Shown here: in pieces, positions 46,735 through 48,756 of the stretch
Layout: every line of letters starts with the position of its first letter
How positions within the stretch are numbered: position 1 is the first letter of the stretch
Source: an uncultured bacterium
Lineage (GTDB): Bacteria > Patescibacteriota > Minisyncoccia > Phycocordibacterales > CAIJYI01
DNA: 64,000 bases
Reading direction: 5' to 3'
Assembly: GCA_903824855.1 (NCBI GenBank)
Contig: CAIJYI010000037.1
Span: forward strand, 18,684 to 82,683
The notes under the pieces: model-generated
Seen by the model: only the letters and a program-made list of their open reading frames with translations
Told to the model about the DNA's origin: nothing
Databases searched by the model: none
Position numbers and translations under genes: made by a program

Positions 46735-46878
46735 TGTGCCCGAGAGAGGAATCTTTCTCCTTACAGGAGCGGTACATGTTTTATACCTCACTTCGCCGAC
46801 CTCGGCTCGTTACGGTATATTCAACATCTTCAAATCCTCACGAAAGAGAAGCAGTTCTCTTTCTTCTCGGGCACACAA
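46735..46878. repeat. tRNA-Leu-linked structured element (copy 1): direct copy of the tRNA-Leu 3' end (tgtgcccgagagagga), a core of about 113 nt, then an inverted copy (cttctcgggcacaca)
   Basis: Homologous (about 80-85 percent) to the reverse complement of 48615-48756. Flanked by terminator hairpins at 46705-46735 and 46877-46903. Confidence 0.75.
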
Positions 46879-46906
46879 AAAATCGGCTCAATGCCGATTT
46901 TTTCTG

Positions 46907-46988
46907 TGCCCGAGAGAGGACTTGAACCTCCATGTATTGCTACATACGCACCTGAAGCGTACGCGTCTACCAATTTCGCCACCCGGGC
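46907..46988 (-). tRNA. tRNA-Leu (anticodon CAG), class II with long variable arm
   Basis: Hand-folded. Acceptor GCCCGGG/CTCGGGC, anticodon stem-loop TACGC-TTCAGGT-GCGTA, variable hairpin TGTAGCAATACA, T-arm GGAGG-TTCAAGT-CCTCT. No CCA encoded. Confidence 0.85.
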
Positions 46989-47065
46989 ATACGTGTATAT
47001 AAGGGATTAACAAATCATCCTTATATACACACCCTATCAAATCTCTCTATAAAATACCAATGGTA

Positions 47066-48361
47066 TTACTTCTTAAACCATTTACCGTATTTATCGCCAA
47101 ATTTTTTCAAATTGTCGGAGATGTCTTCTTCTTTATTTTTTTTAATTTCCGGTTTCGAATCCTCTTCTTTCTCTTCAATCAGTTCTTCACTATTCAATGC
47201 TGAAATTTCTTCTGATAGTTCTTCCTCAAATTCTTTTTTCAACTTAACCGGTTTTGGTTTCTTTCCTTCAATAATTTCGAGCATTTCCTCAATCTCATTT
47301 TTCGGCAAAAGTCCCTGTAAAACACCTCGGAATATTTGCTCTTGAAATTTCTTTTGCAGGATATTTGTCATTCCTCCCGGTGGCATACCTTTTCTTATCC
47401 AGTTGATATAAGGATATGCGGTTTCGCTAATAGGGAGAGTAACCAATACAATATCATCCGCCTGATTCGTATCATCAGATTTATTTCGTTTTGCCTTTGC
47501 AATCTGTCTCTTCTTTTTCTCTTGTGTCTCAGGGTTCGTATTCATCGTCAATTGGACACCTATTTCTTCCGTTTCTTCTGATTCTTCAACCCTTACCCCA
47601 CGAAGTCTTTTTGGAATACGAATATAAAAATCTATTTTTCCCTCAACATCTTCGTAAATATCCGCATCTTCAATCTTTATCGGAAGATTACAGTCAATAA
47701 TCATCTTCTGAAAAAATGTTTTAACAATTTTTTCAGCAACTATTCCGGGCTGTATTTCATTTTTTTCTCGCCGTTCTGATACCGCCGTATAAGCCGTGGT
47801 TAGATGCTCACGCCCAATCCTATCAAACTCTGAGGTCGATTTTGGTTTCTGGTGAATTTCTGTTTTTAAAATTTGATCATCCGCCAAAGAAAGAATATTT
47901 CTTCTTGCGTCATCGACAATAAATCGTTTTCTCACTTCTCTCGGAACGGTTCCGTCCATTTCATATAAAATCCCCCATTCCGGGTCAGTCAAGATTTCGC
48001 CTTTTGTTGCAGAAGATTTTGTTCCGTCAGGAAGAGTAATAATGGCTTTTTCCTCTTTTTCGTTCCATGAAACGGAACGCACGGTTGTATCCCCGTCAAA
48101 ACCAATAACGGGTTCATCTTTATCGATGGCCTGCAGTTTTTCATGCAGTTTACCCATTATCTTATTCTTCATATTTTGCAAAGTGAAGATTTCCGCCGCC
48201 GTTTCTTTTGTCCATATCCCTTTTTTCACAAAGTCTTTTCCCATTTGAGTAATCTCACCCTTTATCGTGTTTTTCTCTCCTTCATCTTGAGATTTTTTAA
48301 ACTCGGTTATTTTCTCATTCGTTGCGAGCAACGATTCTTCAAAATTTTCTTTCATATGCAT
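47066..48361 (-). CDS. Acidic hypothetical protein (about 430 aa) enclosed between the two tRNA-linked elements
   Basis: Long ORF with a Glu/Lys-rich C-terminus. No motif recognised. Start ambiguous (48361 or 48355; the track start at 48388 is TTG). Confidence 0.6.
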   Translation of the reverse strand: MHMKENFEESLLATNEKITEFKKSQDEGEKNTIKGEITQMGKDFVKKGIWTKETAAEIFTLQNMKNKIMGKLHEKLQAIDKDEPVIGFDGDTTVRSVSWNEKEEKAIITLPDGTKSSATKGEILTDPEWGILYEMDGTVPREVRKRFIVDDARRNILSLADDQILKTEIHQKPKSTSEFDRIGREHLTTAYTAVSERREKNEIQPGIVAEKIVKTFFQKMIIDCNLPIKIEDADIYEDVEGKIDFYIRIPKRLRGVRVEESEETEEIGVQLTMNTNPETQEKKKRQIAKAKRNKSDDTNQADDIVLVTLPISETAYPYINWIRKGMPPGGMTNILQKKFQEQIFRGVLQGLLPKNEIEEMLEIIEGKKPKPVKLKKEFEEELSEEISALNSEELIEEKEEDSKPEIKKNKEEDISDNLKKFGDKYGKWFKK

Positions 48362-48488
48362 ACAGAATACCAAATTGAAGAAGAACAAGCAAAAAACTTT
48401 TAAATCTCACAGAAATGATTTCGTCCTCTTACGGTGGTATTTTTTTGTTTTTTATGATATATATAATAGTAATTGAATAAAGAACGGG

Positions 48489-48575
48489 GAGAGGTGGCTG
48501 AGTGGTCGAAAGCGCCTCACTGCTAACGAGGTATCCTGTAAAAAGGATCCAGGGTTCGAATCCCTGCCTCTCCGC
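48489..48575 (+). tRNA. tRNA-Ser (anticodon GCU), class II
   Basis: Hand-folded. Acceptor GGAGAGG/CCTCTCC, D-arm GCT-GAGTGGTCGAA-AGC, anticodon loop CTGCTAA with an A31-C39 mismatch, variable hairpin ATCCT-GTAAAA-AGGAT, T-arm CAGGG-TTCGAAT-CCCTG. Confidence 0.75.
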
Positions 48576-48614
48576 CTGTATTAAGAAATGCCCTTTTTAG
48601 GGTATTTTTTAATG

Positions 48615-48756
48615 CAGGCGGAGAGGAGAAAGACAACTGCTTGTCTTTCGTCGGGGATTCGAAGATGTTGAATATATCGCAACGAGTCGAGATCGACGAA
48701 GTGAGATATAAAACCCGTACCGTCCATGTAATGGAAGAAATTCCCTGCCTCTCCGT
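48615..48756. repeat. tRNA-Ser-linked structured element (copy 2): inverted copy of the tRNA-Ser 3' end (gcaggcggagagg), core, then direct copy (tccctgcctctccg)
   Basis: The direct copy is identical to tRNA-Ser 48562-48575. The core is homologous to the reverse complement of copy 1 and shows three compensatory base-pair changes in predicted hairpins. Confidence 0.75.

What the first reader, a model, noticed from the sequence alone, without database searches (positions are those of the whole stretch)
46735..48756. att-like duplication of tRNA 3' ends and a symmetric cassette around a 440-aa acidic orphan gene
Each tRNA 3' end is repeated directly about 170 bp downstream:
- The 16 bp tcctctctcgggcaca follows tRNA-Leu.
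- The 14 bp tccctgcctctccg follows tRNA-Ser.

This is the signature that tyrosine-integrase-mediated insertion into a tRNA gene leaves as attL/attR. Here the inserted DNA would be only about 150 bp and is homologous at both sites. That suggests a miniature integrase-dependent element or a specifically retained functional module.

The two elements lie in inverted orientation and frame a 1.9-kb segment. The order is element 1, tRNA-Leu (minus), a 430-aa Glu/Lys-rich hypothetical gene (minus), tRNA-Ser (plus), element 2. About 145-bp inverted repeats at about 85 percent identity flanking a gene plus two tRNAs could also mediate inversion of the segment.
Basis: partly seen in the sequence, partly recalled or inferred. 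Interest (0 to 1): 0.7.

Follow-up and report, generated by a model that had tools for sequence, protein, structure and literature searches.

The report
tRNA-matched structured elements after tRNA genes
Downstream of each of the two tRNA genes lies a copy of a previously undescribed, conserved, folded non-coding element of Parcubacteria whose two ends are an antisense and a sense copy of the neighbouring tRNA's 3' end; this is not an ordinary integrase scar, and it shows that a small element can be tailored to different tRNAs.

Summary
A 139-nt element (E1) follows tRNA-Leu(CAG) and a 141-nt element (E2) follows tRNA-Ser(GCU). They are 82-90% alike, inverted relative to each other, and each ends in a 14-16-nt exact copy of its tRNA's 3' end.

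The att-scar reading does not fit:
- **Antisense copies.** Each element also begins with antisense copies of the same tRNA end: the acceptor 3' strand, then the T-stem 3' strand plus T-loop. A conserved hairpin (P2, loop CUGC) separates the two.
- **Conserved fold.** The core folds into helices P2-P6. Across 14 copies, 25 of 29 base pairs show compensatory changes.
- **Distribution.** I found about 17 copies in at least 9 Parcubacteria genomes, behind tRNA-Leu(CAG), Leu(GAG), Ser(GCU), Arg(UCG), Pro(GGG) and one unidentified tRNA. Each copy matches its own tRNA.
- **Occupied and empty sites.** tRNA-Pro is occupied in one genome and empty in two. There the hairpin between tRNA and element is the native terminator, so both tRNA-derived arms lie inside the insert.
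- **No known relative or enzyme.** There is no Rfam, phage or plasmid match, and no adjacent integrase.
- **No inversion.** No inverted form of the cassette was seen.
- **The flanked gene.** The 431-aa gene is a conserved syntenic Parcubacteria gene, possibly with a nuclease-like fold.

My best guess is a non-autonomous, structure-dependent element that pairs with the tRNA 3' end across the terminator (0.4). The main rival is a host tRNA-trailer RNA (0.3).

The parts
46906..46988 (-). tRNA-Leu(CAG), the host tRNA of element E1
   Evidence: ARAGORN; Rfam tRNA, 49.8 bits
46875..46905 (-). hp1-Leu. An A-tract, GC hairpin and T-tract (terminator-like) lie between the tRNA and E1. Together with the tRNA 3' end and the E1 5' arm it forms a 23-nt-arm palindrome.
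   Evidence: Inverted repeat I4, 96% complementary; sequence. By analogy with tRNA-Pro, this hairpin is probably the tRNA's own terminator.
46736..46874 (-). Element E1, 139 nt. Its segments are:
- X' (antisense of the acceptor 3' strand): 46865-46874
- P2 hairpin, loop CUGC: 46842-46863
- antisense of T-stem 3' strand plus T-loop (GAGGATTTGAA): 46829-46839
- structured interior (P4, P5, P6)
- P3 3' strand: 46746-46750
- P1 3' strand: 46736-46745
   Evidence: RNAfold z = -6.3; covariance model R1, 149.6 bits; covariation
46735..46750 (-). Distal sense copy (X) of the tRNA-Leu 3' end, TCCTCTCTCGGGCACA. It runs from the last T-loop base to one base past the discriminator (CA). It forms the 3' strands of P3 and P1.
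   Evidence: (family D1)
46706..46734 (-). hp2-Leu, an intrinsic-terminator-like hairpin after E1. X plus hp2 is 80% identical to X plus hp1 over 44 nt.
   Evidence: Repeat family D1 and inverted repeat I15
47066..48361 (-). 431-aa gene between the two tRNAs. It is a conserved Parcubacteria protein family. A PD-(D/E)xK (restriction-endonuclease-like) domain is possible, with invariant E210, D238, K242, D244 and Q270.
48488..48576 (+). tRNA-Ser(GCU), the host tRNA of element E2
   Evidence: ARAGORN; Rfam tRNA, 58.2 bits
48577..48616 (+). hp1-Ser, a terminator-like hairpin between tRNA-Ser and E2. With the tRNA end and the E2 5' arm it forms a 28-nt-arm palindrome. In sister strains a 3.6-kb R-M island is inserted exactly at its 5' edge.
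   Evidence: Inverted repeat I3, 89% complementary; island junctions
48617..48757 (+). Element E2, 141 nt. Its segments are:
- X': 48617-48626
- P2, loop CUGC at 48637-48640: 48628-48649
- antisense of the T-arm (CGGGGATTCGAA): 48652-48663
- structured interior
- distal X (TCCCTGCCTCTCCG): 48742-48755
- P1 3' strand: 48748-48757
   Evidence: RNAfold z = -4.3; R1, 149.3 bits; covariation
48758..48790 (+). hp2-Ser, a terminator hairpin after E2 that is bidirectional with the convergent 222-aa gene
   Evidence: Sequence; terminator scan

Best explanation
E1 and E2 belong to an undescribed family of roughly 120-170-nt structured non-coding elements of Parcubacteria. Each lies on the tRNA strand just 3' of the tRNA gene's own terminator hairpin.

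**Architecture (shown)**
- A conserved chassis: P2 hairpin with loop CUGC, a P4-P5 rod with a conserved internal loop, and P6 with a GUA loop.
- Three segments matching the host tRNA frame the chassis:
  - antisense of the acceptor 3' strand;
  - antisense of the T-stem 3' strand plus T-loop;
  - at the 3' end, a sense copy running from the last T-loop base to the discriminator.
- The 5' arm prolongs the terminator stem by pairing with the tRNA 3' end.
- In the free element the 5' arm instead pairs with the element's own 3' arm (P1/P3). That stem is a double-stranded replica of the tRNA's acceptor and T stems.

**Mechanism (inferred)**
- It is a non-autonomous, selfish or semi-domesticated element.
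- It is propagated through a folded single strand, either a read-through transcript or ssDNA.
- It recognises its site by base pairing of its 5' arm with the tRNA end across the terminator. This resembles exon-binding sites of group II introns, whose class C members insert after terminators.
- The enzyme acts in trans and is unknown.
- How the arms are rewritten for a new tRNA is not explained.
For: - **Structure.** Folding z-scores are -6.3 and -4.3. On 14 copies, 92.8% of cells are paired and 25 of 29 pairs change on both sides. No shuffle out of 500 reaches this, and slid controls give at most 9 such pairs. G-U cells outnumber A-C cells 21 to 11, which favours the tRNA-sense strand.
- **Arms match the tRNA.** This holds for six tRNA species. 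Examples: L103 tRNA-Pro X' 8/8, anti-T 12/12, X 15/15; L099 tRNA-Leu 12/12, 11/11, 15/15; E2 12/12, 11/12, 14/14.
- **Arms track tRNA substitutions.** tRNA-Leu position 67 is U in the window and C in relatives. tRNA-Ser position 65 is G in the window and C in relatives. Both changes are mirrored in both arms of the element.
- **Occupied versus empty sites.** tRNA-Pro is occupied in L103 and empty in L092 and L100, with hp1 matching the native terminator. tRNA-Ser is occupied in the window, L101 and L102 and empty in L103.
- **Intact and decayed copies coexist,** along with tandem arrays (L046, L090b, L092, L098, L101, L103-Leu).
- **Chassis type does not follow locus orthology.** L103-Pro resembles L099-Leu, and E1 resembles E2.
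- **The core is better conserved than coding DNA.** L090a is 84% identical to E2, against 69-77% for coding regions.
- **No match** in Rfam, phages, plasmids or viral contigs.
Against: - No mobilising enzyme was identified. No reverse transcriptase or transposase appears among 20 window ORFs scanned.
- The element is present behind tRNA-Leu(CAG) in all 7 related genomes examined. That equally fits vertical inheritance of a useful RNA.
- No excised form, fresh insertion or strain-level presence/absence of the element was seen. Strain variants all carry both copies.
- The way perfect arms of more than 30 nt in total arise at a new tRNA is unexplained.
- Which hairpin is proximal and which is distal differs between relatives and is not accounted for.
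- Transcription is untested.
- The alignments used for covariation were fitted to the model.
Confidence: 0.4

Rival explanations
1. Host-functional tRNA-trailer RNA. The element is co-transcribed with the tRNA by terminator read-through. In L092 no hairpin intervenes, so co-transcription there would be direct. It is then released as a tRNA-shaped RNA: P1 stands for the acceptor stem, P3 for the T stem, P2 takes the place of the D and anticodon arms, and the interior replaces the T-loop. It would act as a processing substrate, a decoy, or an antisense partner of the tRNA 3' half. The arms would be kept matched by gene conversion, quasi-palindrome correction or selection.
For: - It is retained behind tRNA-Leu(CAG) in 7 of 7 related genomes, and behind tRNA-Ser in 3 of 4.
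- Strong covariation and conserved loop sequences.
- Terminator hairpins follow E1, E2, L099, L100 and L102-Leu.
- The three-way junction has tRNA-like topology.
- The full-length transcript has two coherent alternative folds.
Against: - Orthologous copies at tRNA-Leu are decayed or lack X', P2 or the type-A interior in L092, L101 and L103.
- The P1 closing stem is intact in only about 5 of 15 copies.
- Copy number and host tRNA vary between genomes, and tandem partial copies exist.
- A mimic of a generic acceptor/T minihelix would not need identity to the neighbouring tRNA.
Confidence: 0.3
2. The elements are attL/attR-type scars, or miniature cis-mobilisable elements, left by tyrosine-integrase recombination within the tRNA 3' end. 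The roughly 150 bp between the direct repeats would be the integrated DNA.
For: - The direct repeat begins in the T-loop and ends at the tRNA 3' end, as for T-loop-class integrases.
- The loci are insertion hot spots: an R-M island at tRNA-Ser in sister strains and a toxin-antitoxin cassette between two copies in L090.
- A Xer-type recombinase is present in the window.
Against: - At tRNA-Pro the proximal hairpin is the native terminator, and both tRNA-derived arms lie inside the insert.
- Classical att sites do not explain the antisense copies, the compensatory evolution of five helices, or the conserved loops.
- No integrase is adjacent in any of about 10 loci.
- The R-M island is bounded by a 5-bp CCGCC repeat, not by the element's repeat.
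Confidence: 0.1
3. A by-product of replication template switching, that is, a tandem inversion duplication. The nascent strand snaps back at the terminator hairpin and copies the tRNA end in antisense. It then switches back at the T-arm hairpin and copies the end again in sense. The result is sense-antisense-sense with no function.
For: - The order direct, inverted, direct has junctions at two natural hairpins.
- X plus hp1 and X plus hp2 are 80% identical over 44 nt at tRNA-Leu (family D1).
- The palindromes are nearly perfect (I3 and I4).
Against: - It cannot explain the homologous P2 and interior chassis shared by copies at six different tRNAs.
- It cannot explain their purifying selection with compensatory changes.
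- At tRNA-Pro there is no duplicated terminator after the element.
Confidence: 0.08
4. An invertible cassette. The two roughly 140-bp inverted repeats would mediate flipping of the 1.9-kb segment that carries the gene and both tRNAs.
For: Inverted repeats of about 140 bp at 82-90% identity lie 1.8 kb apart.
Against: - The same orientation is seen in strain variants (L001, L002) and in relatives with 64-77% Alr identity (L101, L102, L103).
- The arrangement is ancient and fixed.
Confidence: 0.03

Closest known systems
tRNA-gene att duplications of integrase-borne islands, and cis-mobilisable elements (CIMEs)
   Same: There is a direct repeat of the tRNA 3' portion, starting in the T-loop region and ending at the tRNA end. 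The tRNA stays intact. The loci attract other insertions.
   Different: The insert is only about 140 nt. No integrase is adjacent. The insert lies beyond the native terminator and contains antisense copies as well. It has a conserved folded core with covariation.
Bacterial class C (IIC) group II introns, and EBS-IBS target pairing
   Same: Insertion is immediately 3' of an intrinsic terminator hairpin. The element carries internal antisense segments that match the upstream flank. A structured RNA is involved.
   Different: No Rfam group II hit down to E = 10. There is no domain V or VI and no reverse transcriptase or maturase ORF. The element is 140 nt rather than over 400 nt. It has an extra sense copy at its 3' end. 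Splicing is untested.
Folded single-strand recombination sites: integron attC and CTXphi attP(+) (IMEX)
   Same: Conservation lies in structure rather than sequence, on one strand. Two inverted arms fold into a duplex that imitates the double-stranded target. The order X, loop, X', cargo, X resembles an integrated CTX-type element.
   Different: The target is a tRNA end, not attI or dif. There are no R'/R'' boxes or dif-like site. At tRNA-Pro the loop hairpin is native, not element-borne. There is a branched, conserved core.
sRNAs derived from tRNA 3' external transcribed spacers (such as 3'ETS-leuZ), and tRNA-like structures (tmRNA TLD, viral TLS, mascRNA)
   Same: It lies in a tRNA trailer on the tRNA strand. 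The acceptor/T-stem-like coaxial stem has a branch at the tRNA junction position.
   Different: The stem is an exact replica of the neighbouring tRNA. It extends 2-3 bp past the discriminator. There is no T-loop or D-loop. The element is multi-copy and variably present. Expression and processing are untested.
IS110-family bridge (seek) RNAs
   Same: A structured ncRNA of about 150 nt carries segments that match both strands of a DNA target.
   Different: Here the sense and antisense segments cover the same positions and pair with each other, rather than covering adjacent half-sites. No DEDD/serine recombinase gene is nearby, and the 431-aa neighbour has no Pfam hit.
Tandem inversion duplications and quasi-palindrome template switching
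   Same: The layout is sense-antisense-sense with junctions at hairpins. This could account for how the arms stay matched to the tRNA.
   Different: It does not explain a shared, selected chassis at different tRNAs.

Membership tests
Tyrosine-integrase att sites / CIME | The direct repeats delimit the inserted DNA (attL and attR flank it) | tested here: not met
   In the tRNA-Pro occupied versus empty comparison, hp1 matches the native terminator and the insert X'..X contains the distal repeat.
Tyrosine-integrase att sites / CIME | An integrase gene adjacent to one att site, or demonstrable in trans | tested here: not met
   No integrase is adjacent to any element in the fetched loci, although L098 carries a Xer-type gene about 4.5 kb away. 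The only one in the window is Xer-type, at 30902-31837. Trans action cannot be tested here.
MITE / IS-derived element | Terminal inverted repeats identical among copies, plus a short fixed-length target duplication | tested here: not met
   The terminal arms differ completely between copies and follow the adjacent tRNA.
Group II intron (class C) | Domain V/VI ribozyme core | tested here: not met
   No Rfam RF00029 hit at E <= 10 in the window region or at E <= 0.5 in four loci.
Group II intron (class C) | Insertion directly after a terminator hairpin, with pairing to the upstream flank | tested here: met
   and the arm table.
Integron attC / CTX-type folded att site | Imperfect palindrome with conserved R''/R' (RYYYAAC/GTTRRRY) or dif-like core, and an IntI or XerCD target | tested here: not met
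   No such boxes occur in the arms, which are tRNA sequence. Recombination itself cannot be tested here.
Any described RNA family (Rfam 15) | A covariance-model match | tested here: not met
   cmscan at E <= 10 on 44000-51000 and at E <= 0.5 on L092, L099, L101 and L103 returned only the tRNAs and chance hits.
Structured ncRNA (generic) | Conserved secondary structure supported by compensatory substitutions | tested here: met
   25 of 29 pairs change on both sides, 92.8% of cells are paired, and 0 of 500 shuffles reach this. Caveat: the alignment was fitted to the model.
Structured ncRNA (generic) | It is transcribed and accumulates | not testable with these tools
   No expression data are available. 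Only terminator-like hairpins after E1 and E2 can be cited.
tRNA-like structure / RNase P-RNase Z substrate | Acceptor/T coaxial stem with an unpaired discriminator and 3' tail, plus T-loop/D-loop elbow | tested here: not met
   P1 pairs through the discriminator and 1-2 further bases. The T-loop is replaced by the interior and there is no D-arm. ARAGORN does not call the element.
PD-(D/E)xK nuclease (431-aa protein) | Restriction-endonuclease-like alpha-beta-beta-beta-alpha-beta core with an E...D...(D/E)xK motif | tested here: inconclusive

The most novel reading that the evidence does not exclude
The elements are a new kind of self-targeting genetic element. A small folded RNA or ssDNA uses a split antisense guide to dock on the 3' end of a tRNA gene or transcript across its terminator. 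It also carries a sense copy that can take the place of the sequestered tRNA strand. The predicted minimum-energy fold of the read-through transcript is a tRNA with the whole element as a T-loop insertion. The arms would be rewritten from each new host tRNA by a templated mechanism: snap-back or template-switch synthesis, possibly reverse transcription stopping in the T-loop. The conserved neighbouring nuclease-like 431-aa protein might be the partner enzyme.
Probability: 0.2. Interest if true: 0.9.

Novelty: categorically new. Interest (0 to 1): 0.78.

Why it matters
If this holds, the tiny, streamlined genomes of Parcubacteria maintain a family of folded non-coding elements that are individually tailored to tRNA 3' ends.

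- **If it is a mobile element,** the target is read by more than 30 nt of sense and antisense complementarity rather than by a protein-recognised site. That would be a naturally re-programmable insertion system.
- **If it is a host RNA,** it is a new class of tRNA-linked RNA able to swap strands with its tRNA. That suggests an unknown layer of tRNA maturation or quality control.

In either case it explains tRNA 3'-end repeats that annotation pipelines would score as att sites. It also supplies a covariance model that can be used to map the family across the candidate phyla radiation.

Tried and rejected
- **Rfam.** Searches of the window region and of four related loci found nothing on the elements.
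- **Genome scan.** The exact-pattern scan of genome contigs gave 78 chance hits and one true hit, L046.
- **Metagenome scan.** It gave one true locus, L090.
- **Viral contigs.** Two scans gave only chance hits.
- **Phages and plasmids.** blastn found no match.
- **Conserved small ORF.** Rejected. The antisense ORFs of E1 and E2 are in different frames, and substitutions are compensatory in stems.
- **Degenerate tandem tRNA copy.** Rejected. The 5' arm matches the reverse complement of the T-loop (for example GAGGACTTGAA), not the sense T-arm.
- **Intron-containing tRNA, tmRNA, SRP RNA, 6S RNA.** Rejected. ARAGORN and Rfam give no call and the architecture does not fit.
- **DGR template and variable repeats.** Rejected. 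Differences are not adenine-specific and no reverse transcriptase is present.
- **Type III antitoxin repeats, C/D or H/ACA guides.** Rejected. The boxes and partner genes are absent.
- **IS110 bridge RNA.** Rejected. No recombinase is present, and the sense and antisense segments overlap.
- **AFDB Foldseek.** Not available.
- **Literature.** Four full-text searches found no description of such elements.
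Full report
**1. What is in the window**

tRNA-Leu(CAG) lies at 46906-46988 (-) and tRNA-Ser(GCU) at 48488-48576 (+). Reading downstream on each tRNA's own strand, the order is the same:
- a terminator-like hairpin (hp1: A-tract, GC stem, T-tract);
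- a roughly 140-nt element: E1 at 46874 to 46736 (-), E2 at 48617-48757 (+);
- a second terminator-like hairpin (hp2).

E1 and E2 are 82% identical with flanks and 87-90% identical over the core. Each ends with an exact copy of its tRNA's 3' end:
- TCCTCTCTCGGGCACA for Leu;
- TCCCTGCCTCTCCG for Ser.

No other copy is in the window.

**2.

Each element begins with the reverse complement of the same tRNA end (E1 GTGCCCGAGA, E2 GGCGGAGAGG). Two consequences follow:
- The tRNA end, hp1 and the element's start form a 23-28-nt-arm palindrome (I3 and I4).
- The element's two ends can pair as a 10-bp stem, P1.

After one A and a 9-bp hairpin (P2, loop CUGC) comes a second antisense segment. It covers the T-stem 3' strand plus the T-loop. 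E1 has GAGGATTTGAA against the reverse complement of the tRNA, GAGGACTTGAA. E2 has CGGGGATTCGAA against CAGGGATTCGAA. In relatives the match is even clearer: L090a 12/12, L103-Pro 12/12, L099 11/11. The sense T-arm aligns worse, so this is a true inverted copy and not a degenerate tandem tRNA.

**3. It is a folded single strand under selection**

Both copies fold far better than shuffled sequence (z = -6.3 and -4.3). I built a covariance model of the core and used it to collect copies. On 14 copies:
- 92.8% of cells are paired;
- 25 of 29 pairs show changes on both sides;
- 0 of 500 shuffles reach this;
- partner-slid controls give at most 9 such pairs (7-copy version).

Caveat: the alignment is fitted to the model.

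G-U cells outnumber A-C cells 21 to 11, which favours the tRNA-sense strand. The unpaired stretches are conserved. These include the CUGC loop, GAAGAUGUUGAA, the CGUAACGAG/CGAAGUGAG internal loop, GUACCG and the GUA loop.

**4. Distribution**

The organism is a Parcubacteria (Paceibacteria) lake MAG lineage. Copies were found as follows.

| Locus | Host tRNA | Notes |
|---|---|---|
| L046 | tRNA-Leu(GAG) | |
| L090 | unidentified tRNA with a long variable arm | two direct copies around a DUF6941 plus HigB/HigA-like cassette; the second copy has only a 9-nt tRNA remnant |
| L092, L099, L100, L101, L102, L103 | tRNA-Leu(CAG) | syntenic with E1 |
| L101 | tRNA-Ser(GCU) | 2.5 tandem copies |
| L102 | tRNA-Ser(GCU) | |
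| L098 | tRNA-Arg(UCG) | two tandem copies |
| L103 | tRNA-Pro(GGG) | perfect arms |

In every case the arms match the adjacent tRNA.

Substitutions in the tRNA are mirrored in both arms:
- tRNA-Leu position 67 is U in the window and C in relatives. X' has A versus G, and the distal X has T versus C.
- tRNA-Ser position 65 is G versus C. The P3 5' strand has C versus G, and the distal X has G versus C.

Nine tRNAs in unrelated loci have no such repeats. The tRNA-Gly and tRNA-Pro genes of L092, L099 and L100 do not have them either.

**5. Evidence for gain, loss and decay**

- tRNA-Pro(GGG) is occupied in L103 but empty in L092 and L100.
- tRNA-Ser(GCU) is occupied in the window, L101 and L102 but empty in L103.
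- Copies range from perfect (E1, E2, L099, L102-Leu, L103-Pro) to decayed. L046 and L101-Leu have lost the distal X. L092 and L103-Leu lack X' and/or P2. L092 and L101-Leu have a different 'type B' interior. L100 has a roughly 150-nt insertion.
- Chassis type follows neither locus nor genome phylogeny. L103-Pro resembles L099-Leu, and E1 resembles E2.
- L090a is 84% identical to E2, while coding DNA of the two organisms is 69-77% identical.

**6. Where the insert begins**

I aligned the occupied tRNA-Pro site with the two empty sites. The tRNA and hp1 are homologous to the tRNA and its native terminator in the empty sites. The extra DNA starts right after the T-tract with X' and includes the distal X.

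Both tRNA-derived arms therefore belong to the insert. The direct repeat is not an att pair or target duplication flanking it. This is the main reason the integrase-scar reading fails.

It also gives the antisense arm a rationale. The arm extends the terminator stem by pairing with the tRNA end, so the hairpin brings target and insertion point together.

A complication is unexplained. At tRNA-Leu a CCGC-type hairpin is distal in the window, L099, L102 and L103 but proximal in L100, L101 and L046. A GACC-type hairpin is proximal in L099 and L102 but distal, with an inverted loop, in L100.

**7. Folding of the whole transcript**

For tRNA plus hp1 plus element, RNAfold prefers a strand-swapped fold. 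The tRNA's T-loop, T-stem 3' strand and acceptor 3' strand pair with the element's 5' arm in a long rod, with P2 as a branch. The tRNA's 5' acceptor strand pairs with the element's distal X.

The alternative fold has a normal tRNA, hp1, and the element closed by P1. It is also self-consistent. Which fold forms in vivo is unknown.

**8. The gene between the tRNAs**

The 431-aa protein has no Pfam hit. It has homologues only in Parcubacteria and other Patescibacteria.

It sits upstream of tRNA-Leu(CAG) in L092 and L099-L103, at 31-46% identity. It is therefore a conserved, fast-evolving syntenic gene and not cargo.

**9. Inversion, integrase, other elements**

- The order tRNA-Ser, gene, tRNA-Leu has the same orientation in strain variants and in L101-L103. 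No inversion was seen.
- The recombinase at 30902-31837 is an ordinary Xer-type protein.
- The rest of the window scanned is housekeeping.

**10. Verdict**

*Shown:*
- This is a new family of structured elements linked to tRNA trailers.
- Its arms match the host tRNA in both sense and antisense.
- Its presence varies across orthologous sites.

*Inferred:*
- It spreads as a non-autonomous element through a folded single strand that docks on the tRNA end (0.4).
- Alternatively it is a host RNA processed from the tRNA transcript (0.3).
- Classical att scars (0.1), a template-switch by-product (0.08) and an invertible cassette (0.03) are disfavoured.

*Not explained:*
- the enzyme;
- how the arms are rewritten for a new tRNA.

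Noticed in passing
L001:1-1760 and L004:8895-10741 (the same site as window 48576/48577): Some sister strains carry a roughly 3.6-kb island with a C5 DNA methylase, a 347-aa ORF, RadC and a 72-aa ORF. It is inserted exactly between the tRNA-Ser 3' end (..CTCTCCGCC) and hp1/E2. It is flanked by a 5-bp CCGCC repeat. An 11-bp inverted repeat, AAGTTTGAACC (T-loop-like), lies near both ends. It has no integrase.
   Followed up: partly
L098:2592-2790 (+): tRNA-Gly(GCC) has an 18-nt direct repeat of its 3' end plus trailer (TATCCCGCACAACAAAAT) 111 nt downstream. An exact 14-nt inverted copy of its T-arm (ATAGGAGAATCGGA) lies in between. This may be a further, shorter relative of the element family.
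   Followed up: partly
L099:6714-6950, L100:6594-6960, L102:4261-4480, window 46706-46905: The two terminator-like hairpins that flank the tRNA-Leu element swap positions between relatives. The CCGC-type is distal in four genomes and proximal in three. The GACC-type is proximal in two and distal, with an inverted loop, in L100. This is unexplained.
   Followed up: partly
L090:121-2190: Two direct copies of the element bracket a DUF6941 gene and a HigB(Gp49)/HigA(HTH_3)-like toxin-antitoxin pair. The two copies share a further 100 nt or so of 3' homology, including the hairpin GTGCGAAGCAC.
   Followed up: partly
L101:1283-2290 (-) and L103:2214-3224 (-): A free-standing LAGLIDADG_3 ORF sits directly upstream of tRNA-Ser(GCU) in two relatives. 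It is absent from the window.
   Followed up: no
L098:2812-5382: In a distant relative, the homologue of the 431-aa protein directly follows a CCA-adding enzyme gene. It lies about 2 kb from tRNA-Arg with its two tandem elements.
   Followed up: no
L099:4560-5289 versus L092:4465-4774 and L100:4841-5181: The tRNA-Pro(GGG)/tRNA-Gly(UCC) pair is in the opposite order and orientation in L099 compared with L092 and L100. This is a small inversion between relatives.
   Followed up: no
window 46700-46988 (-) and 48488-48795 (+): The predicted minimum-energy fold of tRNA plus hairpin plus element is strand-swapped. The tRNA 3' part pairs with the element's 5' arm, and the tRNA 5' acceptor strand pairs with the element's 3' copy (z = -10.8 and -13.7).
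   Followed up: partly
window 8731-10335, 24761-27819, 67-1158: The window encodes ComEC and type IV pilus/T2SS components (two T2SSF proteins and a T2SSE ATPase). This is machinery that imports single-stranded DNA. It might be relevant if the element has an ssDNA stage.
   Followed up: no
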